Source of the DNA: Cetorhinus maximus
Lineage: Eukaryota
Length of the DNA stretch: 64,000 bases
NCBI RefSeq assembly: GCF_964194155.1
Contig: NC_135897.1
Span: 21,204,001-21,268,000 of the forward strand
Direction of reading: 5' to 3'
The position numbers were made by a program, and so were the translations under genes. The notes under the pieces are model-generated. The model was not told the DNA's origin and searched no databases. It worked only from the letters and a program-made list of their open reading frames with translations. Positions 5,326 to 27,074 of this stretch are shown piece after piece (the first letter of the stretch is position 1; the number at the start of each line of letters is the position of its first letter).

Positions 5326-5350
5326 CAATATACTTGTTCCAAAATTTTAA
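5326..5350 (-). CDS. PROC: Protein C aromatic-stack micro-exon (LKFWNKYI + phase-1 G)
   Basis: tttttttgacag|TTAAAATTTTGGAACAAGTATATTG|gtgagt. Exactly 25 nt, phase 0 to 1, with the FWxxY motif typical of this exon in F7/F9/F10/PROC genes. Confidence 0.92.
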
Positions 5351-7125: not shown

Positions 7126-8126
7126 CCGTTTCCTTGTGTCCTTTCCAGCACCTGCAGGTAACTGGGGTTTGCAGCTTTGCACAGTGCAGTGATCTCAAAT
7201 CAACACCCGAGTCACTTCACAGACGTCCAGTTCTTTAGTTGGACAAAACCTGCATTCTCACCGGCAATCACATTGTTGCGGTTTGGAAGCAAAATGAGGT
7301 CTTGATGATAAATAGCAGTAGCTCCCCAGACCAATTTTTCCAGTGGGAGAGTGGAGTGAGGTCCAGTCTATTGTGTTTAATCCACGGTATGAACCAGGTG
7401 CCCTCATATGCACCCAGACTCCAAGGTACCTACTCACTGCACAAATACATAAGGTTTGGGTATTCTCAGCTCAGGTACTCTGTTGGAAAGCTAACCAATG
7501 TAATGGCATCTGACCCCCACAGTCTAGCCGTATTCAATTACTAACAGAGGTGACTGTGTAATGATCATCAGCAGGAACCAAGTAATTTCATCCTTTAGCC
7601 AGTGTACTTGAAGTCAACTGTGGCAAACCTATTGCTGCCTGATGAAGATCATGTAACTCAGTACAGAGCTGTTGGGGTAGGAATGGGGCAGAGCAAGGGA
7701 ACAACAGATTGAACCTCCGACAACCCTGCTACTCATCATTTTAAGCAGCTTTTTCCAATTGTTAATACACATTTGATGTTAGCCATAAACTACACTTCAC
7801 TTGCACAGGCATTAATATTAATGGAAGGTGCAGTTTGCTGTCCTGATCTTTTCCCCTCTCACTAAAAAGAAAACCATTTGTCAAACCCATTCTCAAGAAA
7901 CCACTGCCAACACTGCCAACTTTACCAATGCTTTGATATTACACCATTGTTTTGCTGCATATTAAATCAGAATCGAAGAGAAGGAGACATCTTTCCCTTG
8001 GCTCTCCATGTCCATCCAATTCCAAGATTAAAGCAATGGTGTAATATCAGGAAATTGTTAATAAAATTAACAGGGTTGGTGTATCATGAACCTGGATGCA
8101 GAGGTGATTGATTGTAGCATACTCAC

Positions 8127-8287
8127 AGTATCATCCATTGACTGGTAAATCTCTTTTGCCTCTTCAAATTCACACTTTTCTTCAATACATTCCCTTTCCA
8201 AATTTCCAGGTCTTAACTCTTCAAAGAGATAATTAGCCCGTTTTCGAATTCTTAAGACATTATGGGCATCTTTTTCTGGTAAAAATA
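8127..8287 (-). CDS. PROC: Protein C propeptide + Gla-domain exon
   Basis: tttcag|TA..ACT|gtgagt; 161 nt, phase 1 to 0. Encodes (V)[53 protein letters not shown], with carboxylase-site residues F-16, A-10, L-6. AHxVLRIRKR and FEEAKEI(F/Y)Q..DDT match human protein C as recalled. Confidence 0.9.
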
Positions 8288-9386: not shown

Positions 9387-9453
9387 CTGAGTAGCTGGAC
9401 ACATCTATAAAGCACGAGGCCAAGAGAAATATTAAACAACAGTGAGCCTTCAT
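9387..9453 (-). CDS. PROC: Protein C first coding exon (signal peptide MKAHCCLIFLLASCFIDVSSYS); exon spans 9387-9481 including 28 nt of 5'UTR
   Basis: Acceptor cctttcccattgcag at 9482, ATG at 9453, hydrophobic leader, donor G|gtcagt. The phase-1 G joins TA of the Gla exon to give Val. Confidence 0.85.
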
Positions 9454-10530
9454 TGTGTAATCTGGTTCTTCAAACCCTTGCCTGCAATGGGAAAGGAATA
9501 TGTAATATGCTATGGGATAGCAACTAATCAGGTAAAGCCTTGAAGATTTCTATCTTTTTTCTTCAATGTTTCAACAGATATATCCATCTCTTCTGAGCCT
9601 GTGCCTTTTTACAGTTCTCCATGTTAGTTTTTCTTTCTGAGTTTATAGAAAGTAAGAGCTCTGCATAAGCCTACCTCAGCATCTCGGTGAACCTATCTGA
9701 GGATCCTTCAATCTAAACTAATGGGTTTTGCCCTCCCTTCATAGTAGAGACAAATACCAACCATAAAAGGACGTCAAAAATCAAATTTATCAAACAAACT
9801 ATGTCAGCATTGACCAAAAATTGACCTGTTATGTCTAGACTTATGCACTTATTTTCCTATTACGAAATTCCTACAAGGTGCTTCACCAGTGGCTATAGTT
9901 TGAGAGTTTGAAGACTGCTGATATTCCATTGACACCATCAGACTGCCTTGGAGTATGACCTTGAGCAGCTCCAGGCCCAGAGATCCTGGCTGCAGATTGC
10001 AGCATCTAAGCATAGGCTACAGCAGTCTTACTAGCTGGTTAACTGTCACCAGCAGAGGCACTGGCAAGCATAGGCATGCTGAGAGAGGACAACTATTATC
10101 TTGTTCATGGAGTAAAGGCCACTGTCCTGGGGTGATGCCTCAGAACCAAGTGTTGGAAAGATGTTGGAAAGGCCCTTTCAACACTCACTCCTAAAGACAA
10201 GATGGCAGCCATCTGAGCTTCCATGGCAGCAGATTGTAACAATAAAGAATTAGTAAGCTCATGTTACGCAATCTAACATAAGTACTCAGGTACATGACAC
10301 TATACATTCCAATATGTATGTGAATCTTTATTGAGGTCATGATTCACTAAGAGAACTCAGGTATATCACTGTCCACCGTTCAGTATGATGGTGTTACTCA
10401 CAACTTCTATACCAATTCTACCCTTGAGCTTTACACTTCCTGTATACTACCACGAAATCACAATACATCAAAAGACACAAAGTGACATCAAGAATAACAA
10501 AATGGAGCCAAGAGATATTTATCTCAACTT

Positions 10531-12519
10531 GGGGGAGGCGGTGGTGTCGTAATGTCACCAGACTAGTAATCCAAAGGTCCTGGCTAATGCTCTGAGGTCA
10601 TGGGTTTGAATCCCACCATGGCAGCTGGTGAAATTTAAATTCAGTTAATAAATCTGGAATTAAAAAGCTAGTCTCGGTAACATGGACCCTGAAACCATTT
10701 TTGATTTTCATAAAAACACATTTGGTTCATAAAAGTCCTTTTTGGGAAGGAAATCTACCAACCTGATCTGGTCTGGCCTACATATGACTCCAGACCCACA
10801 GCAATCTAGTTGACTCTTAAATGCCCTCTGGAATGGCCTAGCAAGCCACTCAGTTGTATCAAAACTGCTACGACGTCTACAAAAAGAAATGAAACCTGAT
10901 GGATCACCTAGCATCGACCTAGGCATTGGAATTGACAATGGCACACCCTGTTGACCCTGCAAAGTCCCCCTTACTAACCTCTGGAGGCTTGTGCCAAAAT
11001 TGGGAGAACTGTCCCACAGACGAGTCAAGCAACAGCCTGGCATAGTCATACTCATGGAATCATACTTTAGAGATAATGTCCTAGACATCACCATCACCAT
11101 CCCTTGGTATGTTTTGTCCCACCAACAGGACAGATCTACCAGAGGTGCGGCACTGTGGTACATAGTTGGGAGAGAGTTGCCCTGGGAATTCTGAATACCG
11201 ACTCTGAACCCCATGAAGTCACATTGCACAAAGTCAAACATAGGCAAGAAAACCTCCTGCTGATTACCACCTACCATCACTTAGTTGATGAATCAGTATT
11301 CTTCCATGTTGAATACTGGAGGAAGCACTGAGGATGGCAAGGGCATAGAATGTACTCTGGGTTGAGGACTTCAATGTCCATCACCAAGAGTGGCTCAATA
11401 AAACCACTACTGACTGAGCTGGCCAAGGCCTAAAGGACACAGCTGCTAGGCTGGGTCTGCGGTAGGTGGTGAGGGAACCAACAAGAGCGAGAAACCTACT
11501 TTACCTCATCCTCACCAATCTACCTGCTGCAGAGCATCTGTCCATGACAGTATCAGTAGGAGTACCATGACACAGTTCCTTGTGGAAACAAAGTCCTGTT
11601 TTCACACTGAGGATACCCCCATCATGTTGTGTGATACTACCACTATACTAAATGGGATAAATTTTGAACAGATCTATCAACCCAAAACTGGGCATCCATG
11701 AGGCTCTGTGGGCCATCAGCAGCAGCAGAATTGTACTAACCACAATCTGTAACCTCATGGCTTGGCATATCCCCCGCTTTACCATTACAATCAAGCCCGG
11801 GGATCAACCCTGGTTCAAAGAAGAGTGTAGGAGGGCATGCCAGGAGCAGCACCAGGCATACCTAAAAATGAGATGTCAAACTGGTGAAGCGACAACACTA
11901 CTTGCTTGCCAAACAGCATAAGCAACACATGATAGACGGAGCTAAGCGATCCCACAACCAATGGATCAGACCTAAGCTCTGCAGTCCTGCCACATCCAGT
12001 CACGAATGGTGGTGGACAATTAAACAACTCACTGGAGGAGAAAGCTCCACAAATACCCTCATCCTCAATGATGGGGGAGCCCAGCACATCAGTACAAAAA
12101 AAAGACAAGGCTGAGGCTTTTGCAATAATCTTCAGCCAGGAGTGCCAAATAGATGATCCATTGCAGCCTCCTCCAGAGGTCCCCAGCATCACAGATGCCA
12201 GTCTCCAGCCAATTCAATTCACTCCACATGATATCTAGAAATGGCTGTAGGCACTGGATGCTACAAAGCCTATGGGCCTTGACAACATTCCAGCAATAGT
12301 ACTGAAGACTTATGCTCCAGAACTAGCCAAGCCCTTAGCCAAGCTACTCCAGAACAGCTACAAAACTGGCAACTACCCGGCAATATGGAAAACTGGCCAG
12401 GTAAGTCCAGTCCACAAGAAGCAGGACAAATCCTGGCCAATTATCACTCCATCAATCTACTCTCAATCATCAGCAAAGTGATGGAAGGGGTCATCGACAG
12501 TGCTATCAAGCGCCACTTA
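10531..12519 (+). mobile_element. tRNA-headed, ORF1-less APE-RT LINE (CR1/L2 group), 3'-truncated, decayed
   Basis: tRNA-like head (CTAGTAA loop 10563, B-box GGTTTGAATCC 10603), ~330-nt leader, then APE (LVPKLGEL..VILMESY ~10990), PGDQPWF, and GLDNIPAIVLKTYAPEL..PVHKKQDK (RT start). Confidence 0.85.
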
Positions 12520-12826
12520 TTCAACACCTATGTCTCTCTCTCTCTGCTCCCCTCACTTCACAAATAGCCCCTGTCCCTTTCTTTCATTTCAGCTGCTGAG
12601 AATGTCAATTTCCTCAGCCATAGGAGGAAATTTGCTGGCAGGAAGTGGGCTGATCTTGAAAATGCATCATCACTTGATCTGACTCTCTCAAGCACCAGCT
12701 CAGAAATGACACGGCACAGAGTTTAGAGGTTTTGTCAGAGGAGGGATCTGCACATGGTGGCTCATACTGACAAAGGTGTGCAGGAGGCAGGGCAAGAGGT
12801 ATAAAAGACCACAGATGCTAGCTCAA
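12520..12826 (+). repeat. Left arm of ~305-bp inverted repeat (partner 17342-17642)
   Basis: Direct reverse-complement comparison shows about 90% identity by eye. Confidence 0.9.
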
Positions 12827-15800
12827 TGGAGTGCAGCCAAGCTAACTGAGTGAAGACTTGGAGTTTGTTGACAGGGGGAGTTCGGTGAAGTGGGAGAAGG
12901 AATTGTTTGTTTCCCCTTTCCATCTTCCTCATCCCATAGAAATTGGTTCTTGCTCTACTACAGGGAAAGGAACTAGCAGTTTGGTAAGTATCTGCTAAGT
13001 GGGTAAGTTCTATTCTATCCCAAGGTTTAAAATAGTACACATTTTGGTGATAAAGTTAATAAAATATATAAGAAAGCAACATAAATAAGTGATTAATATA
13101 ATTAACTAATTATTTAAATCACATTAAGGATGGCAAGACAGGTGATGTGTCAAGGCTGCAGCAGGTGGGAGCTCCTGGAACACATTGTGATCCAGGGCAA
13201 ACACGTCTGCAGTAAGTGTTTGCAGCTTGAGACACTTTGACTCAAGGTCATTGAATGGAGGCTGAGCTGCAGACACTGCGACACATCAGGGAGAGGGAAA
13301 GTTACCTGGATGCTTTATGCCAGGAGGCAGTCAACACCACTTAGGATAGTGTCTTTTGACTTGGTCAGTGGCCAGGGACAGGAAGATGTGACTGCGAGTG
13401 AGGCAGGTAAGGGGACCCAGAGGGCAGGAGTGTGAGCCTCTGCAATTGTCCAACAGGCTTGAGGTTTTCTCAGCTTGTTTGGATGAGAGTGGGGGCTGCA
13501 GGATGGATGAGCAAACTGACCATGGCACCATGGTACACGAAGCCATCCAAGTAGGGGATAGTAGTAGGAGACAGTATAGTGAGAGGATTGACACTGTTCT
13601 CTGTAGCAAAGAGCGAGAGTCCAGACGGCTTTGTTGCCTGCCTGGTGCCAGGGTTTGGGACATTTGCTCAGGGCTGGAAAGGAACTTGTAGTGGGAGGGG
13701 GAGGATCCAGTGGTCGTGGTCCATGTAGGTAGCAACAACATAAGCAGGATGAGGAAGGAGGCTCTGCATAGTCAGTATTATGAGCTAGGTACCAAATTAA
13801 GAAGCAGAACCTCAAAGGTCATAATTTCTGGATTATTACCTGAGTCATGTGCAAGTTGGCATAGGACAAATAAGATTAGAGAAATGAATCCGTGGCTCAA
13901 AGACTGGTGTGGGAGAAGTGGGTTCCGGTTTGTGGGGCACTAGCACCAGTATTGGGGAAGGTGGGATCTGTACTGTTGGGGCGGTCTACACCTGAACCGT
14001 GTTGGTGGTGGTATCGGCGTGAACCGCATAACCAGGGAAGTAGAGGGTTTTAAACTGAATAGTGGGGGCAAGGGATCAAATTAGGGAATATGTGGTAAAC
14101 CAAAGAGTAGAGACAAGGTAAGAGGGACAGCTATTAATATGGGAAATAAGAAACAGAATGCGACAGGAAGGGACGGAGAGTACAAATCTAAGAGTAAATC
14201 AGCAGATAAGGCCAGACACTACAAAAATAATAGAAGGCCAAAACTAAAGGCTCTGTATCTAAACATACGTAGCATTCAAAACAAAACAGATGAACCAATA
14301 GCGCAAATAGAAATAAATAAGTACGATCTGATAGCCATTACAGAGACATGGCTACAGGGTGACATAGGTTGGGTCCTGAATATTGAAGGGTATGTAACAT
14401 TTAGGAAGGACAGGAAGTTAGGAATAAGATGGAGGCGTGGCTTTGTTAATTAATGATGGTATCAGCACATTTGAGAGTGATGACCTAAGTTCAAGAAACC
14501 AGGATGTAGAAGCGGTTTGGGTTGAGCTGGAGAATGATAAAGGCAAGAAGTCACTTGTGGGAATGGAGTACAGGCCTTATAATTATAACTACACAGTAGG
14601 ACAGACTATAAAAGAAGAGAAAATGGGAGCTTGCCAGAAAGGTACAGCAATAATCATGGGGGATTTTAATCTACATATAGACTGGAAAAATCACATGGGC
14701 AAAGGAAGCGTGAATGAAGACTTCTTGGAATGTTTTCAGGATAGTTTCTTAGAACAACACATTCTGGATCCAACCAGAGAGCAGGCTGTACTAGATCTGG
14801 TATTGAGCAATGAGATAGGATTAATTGATAATCGCCTAGTGAAGGCACCCCTAGGTAGCAGCAATCATAATATGATTGAATTTTACATAAATTTTGAAGG
14901 AGAAACGAGTGCATCCAAGACTAGTATTTTAAAGTTAAATAAGGACAATTATGGGAGCATGAAAGCAGAACTAAAGGGAACTGGCAAATGAGATTAAGGG
15001 ATATGTCATTAGGAGTTCAGTGGCAGACATTTAAAGGAATATTTCAGAATACATACATTACAATGAGAAAGAAAAATTCCAAGGGAAGGGCCCACCATCC
15101 CTGGTTAACTAAAAAAGTTAAAGAGAGCATCAAACTTAAAAGAAAAAACATATAATTATGCAAAGATAGGTGGCAGGTCAGAAAATTGGAAGGAATATAA
15201 AGAATAGCAAAGAATGACAAAAAGATTAATGAGGGAAAAAATAGAGTATGAGAGAAAGCTAGCTGGTAATATAAAGACAAATAAGAGTTTCCATAGCTAT
15301 TTAAATAAGAAAAGAGTTAACAAAGCGAATGTTGGTCCTATGCATTGGAGGAATTAATAATGGAAAGTAGGGAGATGGTAGATGAATTAAACAGGTATTT
15401 TGCTTTGGTCTTCATCATAGAGGACACGAGTAACATATCGGAAATAGCTGTAAATCGGAAATGGAAGGGAGGGAGGAACTCAGGAAAATTACAATCACCA
15501 GGGAAGTGGTACTGAGCTATTGTTGGGGCTGCGGGCTGACAAATCTCTAGGTCCAGATGGACTTCACCCTAAGGTCTTGAAAGAAGTGGTGAGAGAGATA
15601 GTTGACGCACTGGTTTTAATTTTCCAAAATTTCCTAGATTAGGGGAAGGTTCCTTTACATTGGAAAATAGCAAATATAACTCCTTTTTCAAAAAGGGAGG
15701 GAGACAAAGCAGGAAATTATAGGCCAGTTAGCTTAACATCTGTCATAGGGAAAATGTTAGAAGCTATTATTAAAGATGTTATAGCAAGGCGCTTAGAAAA

Positions 15801-17060
15801 ATTCAAGGCAATCAGTCAGAATCAACAGGGTTTTGTGAAACGGAAATCATGTTTAACCAATTTATTGGTGTTCTTTGAACGAGTCACATGTGCTGTGGAT
15901 AAAGGGGAACCAGTAGTTGTACTGTACTTAGATTTCCAGAAGACATTTGATAAAGTGCCACATCAAAGGTTATTGCAGAAAATAAAAGCTCACGGTGTAG
16001 GGGGTAACATATTGGCATGGATAGAAGATTGGCTGGCTAACAGGAAGCAGAGAGTTGAATAAATGGGTCTTTTTCTGGTTGGCAGGATGTGACAAGTGGT
16101 GTGCCACAGGGTTCAGTGCTGGGGCGTCAACTTTTTACAACTTATATAAATGACTTGGGTGAAGGGACCGAAGGACTGGTTGCTAAATTTGCTGATGACA
16201 AGGAGGCTACAAAGTGACATAGATAGGGCAAAGATCTGGAAAATGGAGTATAATGTGGGCAAATGTGAAATCGTTCATTTTGGTAGGAAAGATAAAAAAG
16301 ATTATCTAAATGATGAGAGTTTGAGGAGCTCTGAGATTCAGAGGGATCTGGGTGTCCTAGTGCATGAATCACAAAAGGCTAGTATGCAGGTACAGCAGGT
16401 AATTAGGAAAGCTAATAAAAAGTTATCATTTATTGTGAGGGGAATTGATTACAAAAGTAGGGAGGTTATGCTTCAGTTGTAGAGGGCATTGGTGAGACCA
16501 TATCTGAAGTGCTGTGCACGTACTGGTCTCCTAATTTAAATAAAGATGTAAATACATTAGAAGCAATTCAGAGAAGGTTTACTAGACTATACCAGGAACG
16601 GGCGGGTTGTCTTATCAGGAAAGGCTAGGCAGGTTAGACTTGTACCCACTGGTATCTAGAAGAGTAAGAGGTGACTTAATTGAAACCTTTAAGATCCTGA
16701 GGGATCTTTACAGGGTTGGATGTGGAGAGGATGTTTCCTCTTGTGGGAGAATCTAGAACTTGGGGTCACTGTTTAAAAATAAAGGGCTAACCCATTTAAA
16801 ACAGAGATGAGGAGAAATTACTTATTTCAGAGGATTGCGTGTCTTTGGAACTCTCTTCCTCAAAAGGCAGTGGAAGCCGTGTCTTTATATTTTTAAGGCA
16901 GAGCTAGATAGATTCTTGATTAACAAGGGGGTGAAAGGTTATCAGGGGTAGGTAGGAATGTGGGGTTGAGGTTACATTCAGATCAGCCATGATCTTATTG
17001 AATGGCGGAGCAGGCTCAAGGGGCCGAGTAGCCTACTCGTGCTCCTAATTCGTATGTTCA
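12827..17060 (+). mobile_element. Near full-length CR1/HER1-type LINE, decayed
   Basis: 5'UTR; ORF1 from ~13130 (CQGC..HVCSKC finger, VVVHVGSNN esterase); ORF2 APE (LYLNIRSI, ITETWL, MGDFN) and RT (QQGFVK, LDFQKTFDKVPH, KFADDT); 3' tail GATCAGCCATGATCTTATTGAATGGCGGAGCAGGCTC..TATGTTC. Confidence 0.93.
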
Positions 17061-17062
17061 TA

Positions 17063-18580
17063 TCAGAGTTTTCATAAAATTCTCCATCATAGTGGGTTTC
17101 ACTGAACTGATGATGGATCTGACCACTGGTGGATAGGATGGTTTCTACATCTGCCCAAAACCTTCAAACAAGTTAGGAATGGTCATCTTCACATTCCGTG
17201 GCATTGTGCACAAGCTCTCTGATTGGCTACTCAGTGCACCTAGCATTTCATGGTGTGTATCCAGGAGCCTTTTTGGTAACCTGAACCCCTGAAGTCAGCA
17301 TTGGAGTCCACTGAAGAACTGGCTTGTGATGTCGCCCTCTGTTGAGCTAGCATCTGTGGTCTTTTATACCTCTTGCCTTCTACACAACTTTGGCAGTATG
17401 AGCCACCATGTGCAGATCCTTCCTCTGAAAAAACCTATAAGCTCTGTGTCGTGTCATTTCTGAGCTGGTGCTCGAGAGAGTCAGATCAAGTGATGATGCG
17501 TTTTCAAGGTCAGCCCACCTCCTGCCACCAAATTTCCTCCTGTGGCTGAGGAGAATGACATCTCAGCAGTTGAAATCAAAGAAAGGGGCAGGGGTTATTT
17601 GTGATGTGAGGAAAGCAGAGAGAGAGAGACATGGGTGTTGAAAGCATCTGCAGAATGTGGCTGTCATGATGGAACAGCTGACTGTCTGTGTTGTGAGTAA
17701 GCGAGGACTGTAATAGTGATGAGTGTGAGCGTGAGGAGATGGTTTAGTGAAATGTGGTGCAGTAATTGGAGGACACTGCAGAGTAGTGGGGCAGGGTAGT
17801 GTTATAAATAGTGAGGCTATGAGTAATGCAGCTGTAATTAGAAAGTATTTTAGAGGTCTTCCATTAAGAATCTAGATAATTCATTGATTCTTTTTCCTGC
17901 TTTTGCAGCCATGTACTTGGAGCAATACTCCTGGCATTGATATCTGAAGCAATCCCCTCCTGAGTAGATGCCTCAAAGGCTTCGTGCCCCCTGAGGATAA
18001 AGGATGTCCCTACTCTTCTCCACCAAGGCCTCCAGAGCAACATCAGTCCCTCCTTCAGCTTGTTCCACAATTATTGCAGCCAGAAAGCACCATCTCTTTA
18101 AGAGGTGCTGGTGGTCTTTAAGTAGCTCCCTGGACTCCCGATACTGCAGTCCCCTCCACCCTCAGATGCCAATGATTAATGCTCACATTAATTGTTGTAA
18201 TTAGCAGGCATCACAGTTATTGCACGTTGTCTTATTGAGGCAATGTGACACAGGGTAGCTAGGTTAGGCCACAAGCCAGAAACGTTGGGCTGAATTGTAT
18301 GCAGGAGGAGAGGGAATAGGTGACCTGGACACTTGTCCTTGGCTCCCCTACCATAGGTAAAATCGCAGGGGTGGCAAGAGGACGCCCTTAAGCAGCCTTT
18401 AATTGGCCACTTAAGTACTTTTTAGGCCCATGAGCGAGCGGCCTGCCTGACAACTCCCATCACGGGTAAAATACCTGAGCGGTTGGGTACGTGATGGGCA
18501 CAGTGCCATTACCACCATGGTGCCCAATTTTATGCTCCTTGCCTGCCAACCCACAAGTCAGGGGGGAGTAAAATTCCATC
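17063..18580 (-). mobile_element. Probable Harbinger/PIF-type DNA transposon remnant (includes right inverted-repeat arm 17342-17642)
   Basis: Minus-strand HHEMLGALS..ESL remnant resembles the accessory ORF of fish Harbingers as recalled; GGGCTGAATT...GTAAAATTCC terminal-type motifs at ~18287 and ~18575. Confidence 0.4.
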
Positions 18581-19864
18581 TGTTAATTTTGTTCCTTTCC
18601 TAATATCTCCTTTTTTGACACATTGCCCTTTTTTGATAGTTTTCTTGTGCTAAGGGTGCTTTATAAATCAAGTTATGTTGTTGTTGGTAATTCATCCACT
18701 ATTTCCATTTCCTTGGTTTCTCTTAGCACTTCTCTCTGAAACATGGGAGCTCTGGGCATCCCTGCTCCCATCCTTCATGGTTTATTCGAGGTGCAGTGAT
18801 AGCATGAACTTTTGACTGACCTGTAGCAACTTACTTATGAAATTTAATATGATTCATTTGCCCTCAATAATCCCATGCTATACCTGTCTCTGAAAGTTCT
18901 TGTACCTTCACCTCTAAAATCACAGGTCTTTATTTCTGTTTATTGATCATTGGGAATTTTCACATATCTTAACACACCGATTAAACCTGGCTTTTCCTTC
19001 AAGTAAATCTCATTGTAAACAGACCGCATGACCCCCAACTCAATTTTACATCTTTCCTGCTCACCTTTAAAACGATCATTCATCCCTTTTTGGCTTGATT
19101 TATAAGTGTGCCTCTGCTTTCTCAAATATTCTGCTAAAATCCCTTTTTCTAGTCAACCTTATGTACAATTCTCCCCATATAAATGTATTTTGTTCTCTTT
19201 GATTGCTAATCTGTTTTACTGTTTCAATAAAATGCATTGTATTCTCCAACTGTGATCTCTACTTGCTGAGATTTTGATGTCTCTGGTGATATGCCTTTGA
19301 TTTTTCTTCTGCCTATGTTGCACTGCACTGAGGCCTCCTTTCAATCCCCCCCCCCACCACTCTTCTTTTTCAATTTACCTAGTCCACTACGAGCTTGAGT
19401 TGTTAGGGAGGCTTAAGACAGTGGTGATCTCCCAACGGTAAGGTATTTCCATCATTTAGTTTCATGGATTCTAATTTGGATAGCTCCTCATGGAGTCACT
19501 CCTTTATTATACCGAATATGTTGCTGCTGATTGATCATGGATGGTCACATATTCTTGATTATTTCCAAATTGGAAAATGGGTGTTGGGGCAGTCTTTACA
19601 AGACTGAGGGTCCAGAAAAGAGCCCTATGTCCTATAGTGGAGTAGGATACCCTACAGGTTGCATTCTGGCCCAACATTATTAGGTCTTACATCAAAGCTT
19701 TCTTTCCAGAAAGGTCTTATGATAAGCCAAACATTCTGCATAATCCTAGATTATAACTTGATATCCTGCATGATATCCTGCCATGTACTGCTTAACAGCC
19801 TGCTATAATATTACATCTATGTGCAGCATAAATATTGGCATGACCTGTTTCTATTCATTTTATC

Positions 19865-20192
19865 TAATACAACACAATTTACATTTATATATTTTTAAAA
19901 ATACAGGAGATATACAATGGCGCTTTACAAAGCACATAATGAGGGAGATGGATGTGAACCCTCGGTAGTGGTTAGGGGAGGTGACTGAAGGCTAGGTTGA
20001 AATGATAGGTCTGAGGATGTTTATGAAGGATGATGATGAAGTAGAGAGGTGGAAGGATTTAGGAAATTCAGGAAAGTAGAGCTGAGGCTACTGAAAGCTC
20101 TGCCTCTAATGGTGGCAAAGGAAAGCCTAAGTTAAAGGGCTGGAGAGTGTTGTAGAAGTAGGATGCTGCAGAATTGTGAGGCGATTTAAAGT
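19865..20192 (-). mobile_element. L2-type LINE 3' fragment
   Basis: ACAATTTACATTTATAT..CGCTTTACA tail motif followed by purine-rich L2-like body. Confidence 0.45.
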
Positions 20193-20196
20193 TCAT

Positions 20197-22485
20197 TGAA
20201 TCATAGACTGCTTACAGCACAGAGGAGGCTACTTGACCCATTGTGTCATGCTGACACTCTGCAACAGCAACTCAGCTACTGTCACAGCTCTGCCTCACCC
20301 CCACGGCCTTGCAAATGCTTTCTCTTCAGCTGCTTCAGGGAGGAGATCGCAGAGGTTCTGACCCAAATTTTTAATTCTTCTCTGGCCACGGAGGAGGTGC
20401 CAGGGGACTGGGGAACATCTAATATGGTGCCGCTATTTAAGAAGGGTTGAAGAGATAAGCCAGGGAACTACAGGCCAGTGAGTCTCACGTCAGTGGTAGG
20501 GAAACTTTTGGAGAAAATTCTGAGGGAGAGAATCTATCCACTTGGAGAGGCAAGGTTTGATCAGGGATAGTCAGCATGGCTTTGTCAGAGGGAGGTCATG
20601 CCTTAACAAATTTGATTGAATTTTTTGAGGAGGTGACCAGGTGTGTAGGGTAGTGCAGTTGATGTAGTTTATATGGATTTCAGCAAAGCCTTTGACAAGG
20701 CCCCACATGGGAGACTTATAAAGAAGGCAAATGCACATGGGATACAGGGTAATTTGATAAGGTGGATTCAAAATTGGCTTAGTTGTAGGAGGCAGAGTGT
20801 GATGACAGAAGGATGCTTTAGTGACAGGAAGCCAGTGTCCAGTAGGAAACCATAGGGATCTGTGCTGGGTCCCCTATTATTCGTCATTTATATAAACGAC
20901 ATAGATGACTATGTGGAGGGTAGGATTAGTAAGTTTGCGGATGACACAAAGATTGGCTGGGTGGTTATCAGTGAGGTTGAGTGTCTTGGGCTACAGGAAG
21001 ATATATGGTCAAATGGGCAGATAAGTGGCAGATGGAATTTAACCCTGAAAAGTGAGAGGTGATACACTTTGGAAGGAGTAATTTGACAAAGAAGTATTTA
21101 ATGAACGGCATGACACTAGGAAGTTCTGAGGAACAAAGGGACCTTGGCGTGTGTGTCCATAGATCTCTGAAGGCGGAGGGGCATGTTAGTGGGGTGGTGA
21201 AAAAGGCATATGGGACACTTGCCTTTATCAGTCGAGGCATAGATTACAAAAGTAGGGATGTTGGAGTTGTACAGAACCTTGGTGAGGCCACAGCTGGAGT
21301 ACTGTGTGCAGTTCTGGTCGCCACACTATAGGAAGAATGTGATTGCACTGGAGAGGGTGCAGAGGAGATTCACCAGGATGTTGCCTGGGATGAAATATTT
21401 ATGTTATGAAGAGAGGTTGGATAGACTTGGGTTGTTTTCGTTGGAGCAGAGAAGACTAAGGGGCGACTTGATTGAGGTGTACAAGATTATGAGGGACATG
21501 GACAGGGTAGATAGGGAGCAGCTGTTCCCCTTAGTTGAAGGGTCAGTCATGAGGGGACACAAGTTTAAGGTGAGGGGCAGGAGGTTTAGAGGGGATGTGA
21601 GGAAAAACATTTTTATTCAGAGGGTGGTGACAGTTTGGAATGCGCTGCCTGGGAGGGTGGTGGAGGCGGGTTGCCTCACATCCTTAAAAAAGTACCTGGA
21701 TGAGCACTTGGCAAGTCATAACATTCAAGGCTGTGGGCCAAGTGCTGGTAAATGGGATTAGGTAGGTAGGTCAGGTGTTTCTCATGTGTCGGTGCAGACT
21801 TGATGGACCGAAGGGCCTCTTCTGCACTGTGTGATTCTACTCATACAATTCCTTTTTAAAAGCTCCGATTATATCTGCCTCTACCACACTCTCAGGCAGC
21901 GTATTCAGATCCTAACCACTCGCTGCGCAATAAAGTTTTTCCTCATTTCACTGTTGACTCTTTAGCCAATCACCTTATCTCTGTGTTCTCGGGTTCTCAA
22001 CTCTTCCACTAATGGGAACAGTTTCTCACTATCTACTCTGTCCAGACCCCTCATGATTTTGAACAGCTCCCTCAAATCTCCTTTCAACCTTCTCTTCTCT
22101 AAGGAAAACCACCTCAACTTCTCTAATCTACCCATGTACTGAAGTGCCTCGCCAATGAACCAATTTCCTCAATATTTTCTGCACCCTCTTTAATCCATTC
22201 ACATCCTTCCTAAAGTGTGATGCTCAAAAATGGATACAATATTTCAGCTGAGGTCAAACCAGATTTATAAAGGATCATCATAACTCCCGTGCTTTTACAT
22301 AGCCCAGGATCCCAGATGCCCTCTTAACCATTTTCTCAACTTCCCCTGACACCTTCAACAATTTGTGCACATATACCATCAGGATTCTCTGCTCCCGCAC
22401 CCCCTTTAGAATTGCACCCTTTCTTTTATATTGCCTCTCCTTCCTGCCAAAATGTATCACTTCACACTTCTCTGCATTGAACTTA
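20197..22485 (-). mobile_element. CR1 3' fragment split by a younger plus-strand CR1
   Basis: Tail CATAGA..CAGCACAGAGGAGGC at 20202; continues after 21840; FNAEKCEVIHFGRK at 22278-22502. Confidence 0.75.
20337..21840 (+). mobile_element. 5'-truncated CR1 LINE (RT domain and 3'UTR), relatively intact
   Basis: VPLFKKG, MDFSKAFDKAPH, KFADDTK, LVRPQLEYCVQFWSP, WNALP; ends GCACTGTGTGATTCTA. Confidence 0.92.
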
Positions 22486-22489
22486 ATTA

Positions 22490-25699
<3,210 letters not shown>

Positions 25700-25705
<6 letters not shown>

Positions 25706-26566
25706 CCCACCGCAAAGGGCATCACTGACCCAATGTACAGGCCAGGATACATCACTGATACACCACACAAGCCAGGACACAATATTGACCCACCGCAAAG
25801 GCTGGGATACAGCACTGACCCACCGCACAGACCAGGATACATCACTGAGCTACCGCACAGACCAGGATACATCACTGACCCACCACACAGACCAGGATAT
25901 ATCACTGACCCACCGCACAGACCAGGATATATCACTGACCCACCGCACAGACCAGGATACAGCACTGACCCATCGAACAAGCCAGGATACATCACTGACC
26001 CACCGCACAGTCCGAATACAATACTGACCTGCCGCACTTGCTGGGATACATCACTGACCAATCGCACAGGCCGGGATACATCACTGACCCACCCCACAGG
26101 CCAGGATACATCACTGACCCAACGCACAGGCTGGAAGACAATACTGACCCACCATACAGGCTGGAATACATCACTGACTCACCACACAGTGAGGGATACA
26201 TCACTGACCCACTGCAGAGACCAGGATACATGACTGACCAACCGCCCAGGCCACAGTCAGCATTGATCCGACGCAAAGACCGGATACGTCACTGACGCAC
26301 CACACCGGCTAAGATACAACACCGACCCACCACACAGGCCGAGATACATCACTGACCCACCATACAGACCAGGATACATCACTGACCCACCGCACAGGCT
26401 GAGATACATCACTGACCCACCATACAGACCAGTATACATCACTGACCCACCGCACAGGCTGAGATACATCACTGACCCATGGTACAGGCTGAGATACATC
26501 ACTGACCCACGGTACAGGCTGGGATACATCACTGACCCACCGCACAGGCTAATGTACATCACTGTC
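25700..26566. repeat. 30-bp minisatellite, ~29 copies
   Basis: Unit ATCACTGACCCACCGCACAGGCCAGGATAC. Confidence 0.97.
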
Positions 26567-26631
26567 ACACTCCAGATCTATTTTTAAAATTGAATTTGAA
26601 TCAGAGTCTAGAGTATCCCATAATGTTGTAC

Positions 26632-26725
26632 CTTCAAAAATAATTTGTCCACAGAAGTCAGTTGTAATATTTTTCATCTCACAGGCATTAGCTTTCTGCA
26701 TTGGTGAACCCTTCCAAACTCCTGA
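26632..26725 (-). other. PROC: Candidate non-coding exon 1 of protein C (donor at 26632 AAG|gtacaa or 26683 CCT|gtgaga)
   Basis: Lies immediately downstream of the promoter module. The first coding exon has a splice acceptor in its 5'UTR, so an upstream exon is required. Confidence 0.5.
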
Positions 26726-26732
26726 AAAATCT

Positions 26733-26761
26733 GAGTTAATGACTAACTTCAAATATTTACT
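26733..26761 (-). promoter_or_regulatory. Liver-type promoter module: overlapping FOXA(HNF3) sites + HNF1/HNF6 site; probable PROC proximal promoter
   Basis: Minus strand reads AGTAAATATTTGAAGTTAGTCATTAACTC. GTTAATGACTAAC (plus strand) is one mismatch from the HNF1 consensus GTTAATNATTAAC; spacing matches the human PROC promoter as recalled. Confidence 0.7.
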
Positions 26762-27074
26762 CAGAGCCCATGTACCAGAGCGAGTTGCGTCCATGGGTAA
26801 ATATCTGATAGCTGACAAATCCCCACAGCAGTTTGAACACATTTTGTTCAACCAGTATCTGGACTTCTTATTCTGAATTAACACAGTGAGCTGCTAGTGC
26901 AGCATAGTGTGGCTAAAGTGCTGGGAGAAACACTGTCTATACTTAAGAGTATTAACAGCAGCATTTTCTCACAGCAAGCACCTCAACCATGGACTTGTGT
27001 TCACTGTTTGCTCTGCAATTTCTGATTCCTGACACCCTTCCCCCCACCCACCAAGCCTCTACTTTTGCCTCACA

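What the first reader, a model, noticed from the sequence alone, without database searches (positions are those of the whole stretch)
26733..26761. Protein C promoter module apparently conserved from shark to human
Seen (minus strand): AGTAAATATTTGAAGTTAGTCATTAACTC, in the right orientation for PROC. Recalled human PROC proximal promoter: AGCAAATATTTGTGGTTATGGATTAACTC, with overlapping HNF3 sites plus an HNF1/HNF6 site where point mutations cause type I protein C deficiency. The gapless match is 23 of 29, with identical spacing, but the human string is from memory and must be verified. Inference: a liver regulatory cassette conserved across jawed vertebrates, which is rare for liver TF sites, and it locates an otherwise invisible exon 1.
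Basis: partly seen in the sequence, partly recalled or inferred. Interest (0 to 1): 0.7.

Follow-up and report, generated by a model that had tools for sequence, protein, structure and literature searches.

The report
Ancient protein C liver promoter cassette
A shark's protein C gene has, just ahead of a first exon that spliced transcripts reveal, nearly the same short DNA motif at the same spacing as the human promoter stretch whose mutations cause clotting disease, so this likely liver switch is probably at least as old as jawed vertebrates, although its activity in the shark is untested.

Summary
The 29-mer is present as stated (26761-26733, minus strand, single copy). The gene is the shark orthologue of protein C (structure hits, tree, IWS1 neighbour). 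A spliced contig maps a non-coding exon 1 at 26697-26632, joined across a 17-kb intron to the signal-peptide exon; the motif ends 36 nt upstream. A printed human PROC flank confirms the last 20 letters of the recalled human string (15 of 20 match, gapless); the first six letters stay unverified. Correction: what is shared is the forkhead palindrome core, both HNF1 arms and their spacing. The ONECUT/HNF6 core and the flank of the second forkhead half-site differ, so the shark element likely works as FOXA plus HNF1. New: the same cassette (28 of 31 letters, 4-nt insertion) precedes the predicted first exons of the neighbouring paralogue, probably sirtilin, and has an inverted copy; a pattern covering these five sites matches nowhere else in 4 Gb. 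The start site, binding and intermediate species are untested. The scan had not noted this cassette; it noted an analogous PCSK9 case in rays.

The parts
26733..26761 (-). Promoter cassette (the finding)
   Evidence: 15 of 20 gapless match to the printed human flank
26751..26758 (.). Forkhead 'DIV' palindrome core AAATATTT; the minus-strand half GTAAATA (26760-26754) fits RYAAAYA, the other half has T at the purine position
   Evidence: sequence; DIV core defined in PMC6009666; scan
26735..26747 (-). HNF1 palindrome, 11 of 12 consensus positions (human printed flank: 10 of 12)
   Evidence: consensus printed in PMC11382887; only 2 sites in 264 kb reach 11 of 12
26797..26803 (+). Second RYAAAYA forkhead match, 36 nt upstream of the cassette; role inferred only
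26632..26697 (-). Non-coding exon 1, minimal extent (5' end not mapped); donor AAG|GTACAA after 26632
   Evidence: contig of run X13 lies on 26697-26631 with no other letter and goes on into exon 2 (tables 7 and 8); loose end of run X1 gives 19 letters that match only 26632-26650
9482..26631 (-). Intron 1, 17,150 nt
9387..9481 (-). Exon 2: 28 nt of leader, ATG at 9453, signal peptide
   Evidence: joint 9387>8287 in 3 of 4 runs
8127..8287 (-). Exon 3: propeptide and Gla domain
   Evidence: Pfam Gla E 6.6e-15
5326..5350 (-). Exon 4: 25-nt aromatic-stack exon
   Evidence: matches the loose end of X1 before 8127

Best explanation
The motif lies 36 nt upstream of the transcribed first exon of the shark protein C gene and is likely its TATA-less proximal promoter, inherited from the same ancestral element as the human one. 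It would work by an HNF1 dimer binding the near-perfect palindrome at 26747-26735 and FOXA (one strong half-site, possibly a DIV-type dimer) binding the palindrome three bases upstream, together driving transcription in liver from a start somewhere between the cassette and 26697 or a little below it. Shown: position, strand, exon 1 and its splice, gene identity, the sequence match. Inferred: which factors bind, liver specificity, the start site, common descent. The ONECUT input known for the human promoter is likely absent or weak here.
For: Gene identity: last exon scores 181 bits on protein C against 136.5 for the next chain; groups with tetrapod protein C domains at 100/99; IWS1 lies downstream on the other strand (the same neighbour in human is recalled). 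Exon 1 mapped by spliced contigs from two studies (X13, 66 nt; X1, 19 nt). Human letters verified in print for positions 7-29; gapless. The shared-position pattern has no other hit in the genome, control 0 (the one hit is by construction). Textbook pattern: 4 hits genome-wide with one mismatch, one of them here. A review passage states that HNF1 and HNF6 sites overlap in the human promoter and that their disruption causes deficiency; the title of Spek 1995 on two HNF-3 sites was seen in reference lists only. A related cassette stands as an island, with unalignable flanks, before the predicted first exons of the neighbouring paralogues, which suggests selection on it.
Against: The start site is not mapped: contigs cannot show a start, and the two informative contigs end at different places (26697, 26650). 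19 of the 23 claimed matches lie inside the two factor motifs, so selection alone could build much of the similarity. 15 of 20 is chance-level at window scale, and a 22 of 29 look-alike sits in intron 3. No intermediate vertebrate promoter could be examined. Flanks of the human promoter were not available for alignment. No binding or reporter data; tissue of the runs is not on record. The paralogue's 4-nt longer spacer shows that exact spacing is not obligatory for this cassette type. The shark protein C row has a long branch in the tree.
Confidence: 0.78

Rival explanations
1. Real liver promoter, but convergent: shark and mammal independently gained a forkhead palindrome and an HNF1 site before exon 1, and the equal spacing is luck or is favoured by cooperative binding.
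For: Most matching letters are inside factor motifs; the spacer and palindrome centre differ. HNF1 proximal sites are common in plasma-protein genes (albumin example).
Against: Same order, same 3-nt gap, same G after the palindrome and the same two letters after the HNF1 site; by a rough count of placements in 200 nt this is about 1 in several hundred for spacing alone (inference). The paralogue works, if it works, with a 7-nt gap, so spacing is not forced. The paralogue also shares non-motif letters (CTGAGT before, AA spacer), which points to descent or copying.
Confidence: 0.13
2. The motif is a proximal element, but the main start lies elsewhere (further upstream, making the motif part of exon 1, or an alternative first exon), so it is not the core promoter.
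For: No start was mapped. A low-depth contig of run X1 (3.6) lies at 26838-27002, upstream of the motif. Exon 1 as mapped holds out-of-frame ATGs, which would be odd in a long leader.
Against: That contig's depth is like an intronic contig of the same run (2.9), against 1263 for the spliced contig, and the run may hold DNA. Both informative spliced contigs use the 26632 donor.
Confidence: 0.07
3. Chance resemblance in AT-rich DNA with no function.
For: 8 non-self sites in 264 kb match the shark 20-mer at 15 of 20 or better; 17 unrelated metagenome contigs match a 19-letter masked pattern.
Against: Only about 4 such composite sites exist in the genome, and this one is 36 nt from an independently mapped exon 1 of the expected gene: about 1e-7 for a 200-nt window by that count.
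Confidence: 0.02

Closest known systems
Human PROC proximal promoter: two overlapping HNF-3 (FOXA) sites and an overlapping HNF-1/HNF-6 site (Spek et al. 1995, seen as reference title only; Spek and Reitsma 1999 as summarised in PMC11800625)
   Same: Orthologous gene; placed before a non-coding exon 1; forkhead palindrome core, both HNF1 arms and their spacing; 15 of 20 letters of the printed flank.
   Different: Centre of the HNF1 palindrome differs (closer to HNF1 consensus, no full ONECUT match); second forkhead half-site lacks its purine; intron 1 is 17 kb (human about 1.5 kb, from the promoter numbering in PMC7427014); exon 1 is at least 66 nt and holds upstream ATGs.
FOXA1 'DIV' (D0) palindrome, PMC6009666
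   Same: Core AAATATTT with the shared central TA.
   Different: Only one half-site fits RYAAAYA in full; dimer binding is untested here.
Albumin-type HNF1 proximal element (consensus in PMC11382887)
   Same: 11 of 12 consensus positions, close to exon 1 of a plasma-protein gene.
   Different: Coupled to a forkhead palindrome 3 nt upstream; no TATA match in 26600-27000.
Shared liver cis-regulatory modules at F7, F9 and other clotting-gene promoters across five mammals (PMC4359374)
   Same: Clotting-gene promoter where human regulatory mutations hit conserved liver-factor motifs.
   Different: That study spans placental mammals only and does not name PROC in its main text; the depth here is shark to human, by sequence alone.
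Sirtilin (PMC6850207), for the downstream paralogue
   Same: Gla-EGF-EGF-protease outside the FVII, FX and protein C clades, shared by sharks, amphibians, reptiles and birds.
   Different: No sirtilin sequence was compared directly; the name is an inference. The text searched and the supplements hold nothing on its promoter or synteny.

Membership tests
Human-type PROC promoter cassette | Belongs to the protein C orthologue | tested here: met
Human-type PROC promoter cassette | Lies directly 5' of a non-coding exon 1, same strand | tested here: met
   spliced contigs; 36 nt from the 5'-most transcribed base seen
Human-type PROC promoter cassette | Forkhead palindrome core AAATATTT | tested here: met
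   26758-26751
Human-type PROC promoter cassette | Two opposed half-sites that both fit RYAAAYA | tested here: not met
   only the minus-strand half fits; the human opposite half is printed as a fit
Human-type PROC promoter cassette | HNF1 palindrome | tested here: met
   11 of 12
Human-type PROC promoter cassette | ONECUT/HNF6 site overlapping the HNF1 site | tested here: not met
   best 9 of 10 on either strand, each missing a core base; the printed human flank fits 10 of 10 by hand; the consensus is recalled and was not found in print
Human-type PROC promoter cassette | Same order and gap-free spacing as in human | tested here: met
   printed flank overlapping the printed forkhead motif
Human-type PROC promoter cassette | Transcription starts about 10 nt after the HNF1 site (human numbering recalled) | tested here: inconclusive
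   contigs end at 26697 and 26650; they cannot show a start
Human-type PROC promoter cassette | FOXA and HNF1 bind and activate in hepatocytes | not testable with these tools
   needs EMSA, ChIP or reporter
Human-type PROC promoter cassette | Continuous presence in intermediate vertebrates | tested here: inconclusive
   no vertebrate genomes besides the own one are held; metagenome scan gave 17 loci, 0 of 17 with a clotting-protease exon
Sirtilin (downstream paralogue) | Gla-EGF-EGF-protease in a clade apart from FVII, FX and protein C, across non-human vertebrates | tested here: met
   groups with the second domain of 7 of 7 fused tetrapod protein C models, 99/97
Sirtilin (downstream paralogue) | Apart from FIX and clustering with named sirtilin sequences | tested here: inconclusive
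   no tetrapod FIX or named sirtilin in the tree; structure hits FX 167.6, protein C 152.8, FIX 151.3 bits; protein C and sirtilin accession numbers lie close together in 3 of 5 species that list both

The most novel reading that the evidence does not exclude
The FOXA-HNF1 cassette is older than the tandem duplication that split protein C from sirtilin, a gene with a reported lamprey homologue. It would then be a liver switch of the earliest vertebrate clotting proteases, kept base for base in two shark genes and in human PROC, with the disease-relevant ONECUT site a later insertion of function into the centre of the HNF1 palindrome on the bony-vertebrate line, and an inverted upstream copy serving sirtilin as an enhancer.
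Probability: 0.4. Interest if true: 0.72.

Novelty: new variant of a known kind. Interest (0 to 1): 0.5.

Why it matters
Liver factor sites usually turn over quickly (recalled from comparative ChIP work), so a 29-nt cassette kept gap-free from shark to human is an uncommon natural experiment: it marks which promoter bases are likely to matter for protein C levels, separates an old HNF1/FOXA core from a likely younger ONECUT layer, and gives a three-way comparison (human PROC, shark PROC, shark sirtilin) that a simple reporter series can test. It also fixes the first exon and a 17-kb first intron of the shark gene. It is not a new kind of system.

Tried and rejected
Primary papers on the human promoter were not held (Spek 1995, Foster 1985, Smedley 2016, Funnell 2013); their figures and supplements may print the full human string and cross-species alignments that I could not see. 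A paper search with a short piece of the forkhead motif gave 27 papers, none on protein C by title. PMC4609514 does not mention PROC. No ONECUT consensus was found in print. One search for deep conservation of this promoter returned 1 unrelated paper; searches listed none by title; subscription journals are not covered, and I recall a 1998 primate comparison of this promoter that I did not see; no RNA holder listed (run kinds are guesses; the spliced joints with CT..AC ends show RNA origin). No contig of the three RNA-like runs covers 26698-26837 while the DNA run X14 spans it: a hole proves nothing, and the two studies do not stop at one place. X11 showed no exon piece in the listed rows and X6 none on exon 1. 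X13 and X14 share a study and may be the assembly's source. Metagenome scan for vertebrate orthologues: 17 loci, none with a clotting-protease exon. The bacterial promoter scan is not applicable. Strict signal-peptide filter missed exon 2; a looser one found it. The inverted copies do not align significantly to the protein C promoter directly (88 and 71 of 1500 random windows score as high). MAP3K2 motifs (recalled) were not found within 190 kb upstream of the window.

Full report
Observation. The 29 letters stand at window 26761-26733 on the minus strand as quoted, and the surrounding 341 nt have one match in the 3.99-Gb own genome, where the window is C20:21204001-21268000. The nearest named proteins at this locus are from lamniform sharks (IWS1 98% to Cetorhinus maximus; the paralogue 95% to Carcharodon carcharias).

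The gene. On the minus strand lie a signal-peptide exon (9481-9387, ATG 9453), a propeptide-Gla exon (8287-8127; Pfam Gla), a 25-nt aromatic-stack exon (5350-5326) and, beyond the window, EGF and protease exons with the catalytic motifs intact. The last exon scores 181 bits on human protein C against 136.5 for the next chain. In a tree of 48 protease segments (two shark exons plus segments of 24 proteins picked from the 120 listed of 453 hits) it groups with tetrapod protein C domains at 100/99, on a long branch. IWS1 lies downstream on the other strand, as I recall for human. The gene is protein C.

Exon 1. Runs were found with the last exon (none is on record as RNA). The joint 9387>8287 appears in 3 of 4 runs laid. 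The contig of X1 runs 19 letters past exon 2 into sequence that matches only window 26632-26650. The contig of X13 lies on 26697-26631 without a difference and continues into exon 2 (1 of 3 RNA-like runs laid there). So a non-coding exon 1 ends at 26632, intron 1 is 17,150 nt, and the motif ends 36 nt upstream of the 5'-most base seen. Contigs cannot show a start, so initiation near 26725 is neither shown nor refuted.

The human string. The primary papers were not held. Table 6 of PMC5836831 (passages seen) prints a 21-letter PROC promoter flank that equals letters 10-29 of the recalled string. PMC6468292 (passages) names the protein C forkhead motif that covers letters 7-13, and uses a symmetric oligo around the palindrome. 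Letters 1-6 are not independently verified. A review passage confirms overlapping HNF1 and HNF6 sites and deficiency upon their disruption (PMC11800625); the two HNF-3 sites were seen only in a reference title.

Chance. The verified 15 of 20 alone is unremarkable in 64 kb: 0.8 expected, and 8 non-self sites in 264 kb reach it against the shark 20-mer; 18 of 23 is reached twice, 23 of 29 never, 22 of 29 once. Position decides. The pattern of shared letters has no second hit in the genome. A pattern built from the published DIV core and HNF1 consensus, with the observed 3-nt gap and one mismatch allowed, has 4 hits genome-wide, as many as its reversed control, and one is this site; that is about 1e-7 for a given 200-nt window (genome counts are lower bounds).

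Anatomy. 26758-26751 is the DIV core on which FOXA1 dimerises cooperatively (PMC6009666, passages and section 14). The minus-strand half fits RYAAAYA; the other half does not, whereas the human one does. 26747-26735 fits the HNF1 consensus (PMC11382887, passage) at 11 of 12, one of two such sites in 264 kb; the human flank fits 10 of 12. Three of the five verified differences fall in the centre of this palindrome, where the human flank fits a recalled ONECUT consensus in full and the shark reaches 9 of 10 at best. A further RYAAAYA lies at 26797-26803, and no TATA match was found in 26600-27000. The likely mechanism is HNF1 plus FOXA activation of a TATA-less promoter in liver; binding, tissue and start are inferred.

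An unexpected relative. A scan of 264 kb for AATATTT followed by an HNF1-like site gave five hits (two weaker ones more in 454 kb): this one, two that lie about 70 nt before strong donors upstream of the two downstream Gla-protease paralogues, and two inverted copies 2.6 kb further upstream of those. Shark protein C and the paralogue cassette share 28 of 31 letters with a 4-nt insertion, including letters outside the motifs, while the flanks do not align (2 and 4 of 1500 random windows score as high, windows over the true sites not removed). The inverted copy is a 43-nt island 86% identical to the paralogue cassette (E 2.6e-8 in 10 kb). A pattern written from the five sites matches nowhere else in the genome, control 0, so this is no dispersed repeat. 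The paralogue groups at 99/97 with the second domain of 7 of 7 fused tetrapod 'protein C' models, so the tandem pair predates the split of sharks and bony vertebrates. It is probably sirtilin, reported from elephant shark to koala and lamprey but not human (PMC6850207, section 13 and supplement 1), though no named sirtilin or tetrapod FIX was in my tree. If the two shark cassettes share descent through that duplication, the element is older than crown jawed vertebrates, which supports descent for the human match too; old local copying within the shark line is the alternative, and the inverted copy shows that copying has happened here. The paralogue's exon 1 is predicted, not tested with reads.

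Against. No intermediate species could be read; the metagenome scan gave 17 loci and none had a clotting-protease exon. Most matching letters are motif letters, so convergence keeps some weight. Exon 1 holds out-of-frame ATGs.

Novelty. The human cassette is long known. Searches listed no paper on its conservation beyond mammals or on a sirtilin promoter, within a library that lacks most subscription journals. The scan's own notes hold an analogous, unreviewed PCSK9 case in rays, so deep promoter conservation in slow-evolving cartilaginous fish may be recurrent rather than unique. Because two defining features of the human cassette were tested and not met, I file it as a variant of a known kind. 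Interest 0.5.

Noticed in passing
G000:C20:21153597-21153521 and 21118457-21118381 (minus; L007, L010): Related cassette before predicted non-coding first exons (donor AAG|GTAAGT) of the two paralogue copies; here the forkhead half also fits a recalled ONECUT consensus, and another such match lies about 150 nt upstream.
   Followed up: partly
G000:C20:21156155-21156198 and about 21121036-21121079 (plus; L006, L010): Inverted 43-nt copy of the paralogue cassette, 2.6 kb upstream of it, flanks unrelated, followed by a second AAATATTT palindrome; candidate enhancer.
   Followed up: partly
G000:C20 about 21090400-21156800: The paralogue lies in a recent tandem duplication of about 35 kb (90-98% identity); the second copy has stops and an altered catalytic motif and looks like a pseudogene that keeps its promoter cassette.
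   Followed up: partly
window 26701, 26688, 26677 (minus): Upstream ATGs in exon 1: a 4-codon uORF, and a 25- or 33-codon uORF whose stop overlaps the main ATG (ATGA); the last two ATGs are inside the X13 contig. Possible translational damping.
   Followed up: partly
window 25720-26564: 30-bp minisatellite, 28 copies, starting 68 nt inside intron 1; each unit carries GGGTCA and GT-donor-like words on the sense strand.
   Followed up: no
window 7764-7792 (plus): 22 of 29 look-alike of the cassette in intron 3, with a broken forkhead core; treated as chance.
   Followed up: partly
window 26838-27002: Low-depth contig of run X1 (a related organism) upstream of the promoter, with 3 substitutions and 3 indels; DNA carry-over or upstream transcript.
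   Followed up: no
G000:C20:21197947 (L002): The EGF1 exon reads like the plain FIX/FX type and seems to lack the extra cysteine loop that I recall for human protein C.
   Followed up: no
G000:C20:21440965-21444210 (L041): AMER-family single-exon gene about 210 kb upstream of the promoter; no other host gene was identified in between by my motif scan.
   Followed up: no
proteins P0016, P0018, P0019, P0020, P0025, P0029, P0031: Public tetrapod gene models fuse protein C with its tandem paralogue into one long protein, and shark orthologues of the paralogue are labelled factor IX or X; likely annotation errors.
   Followed up: partly
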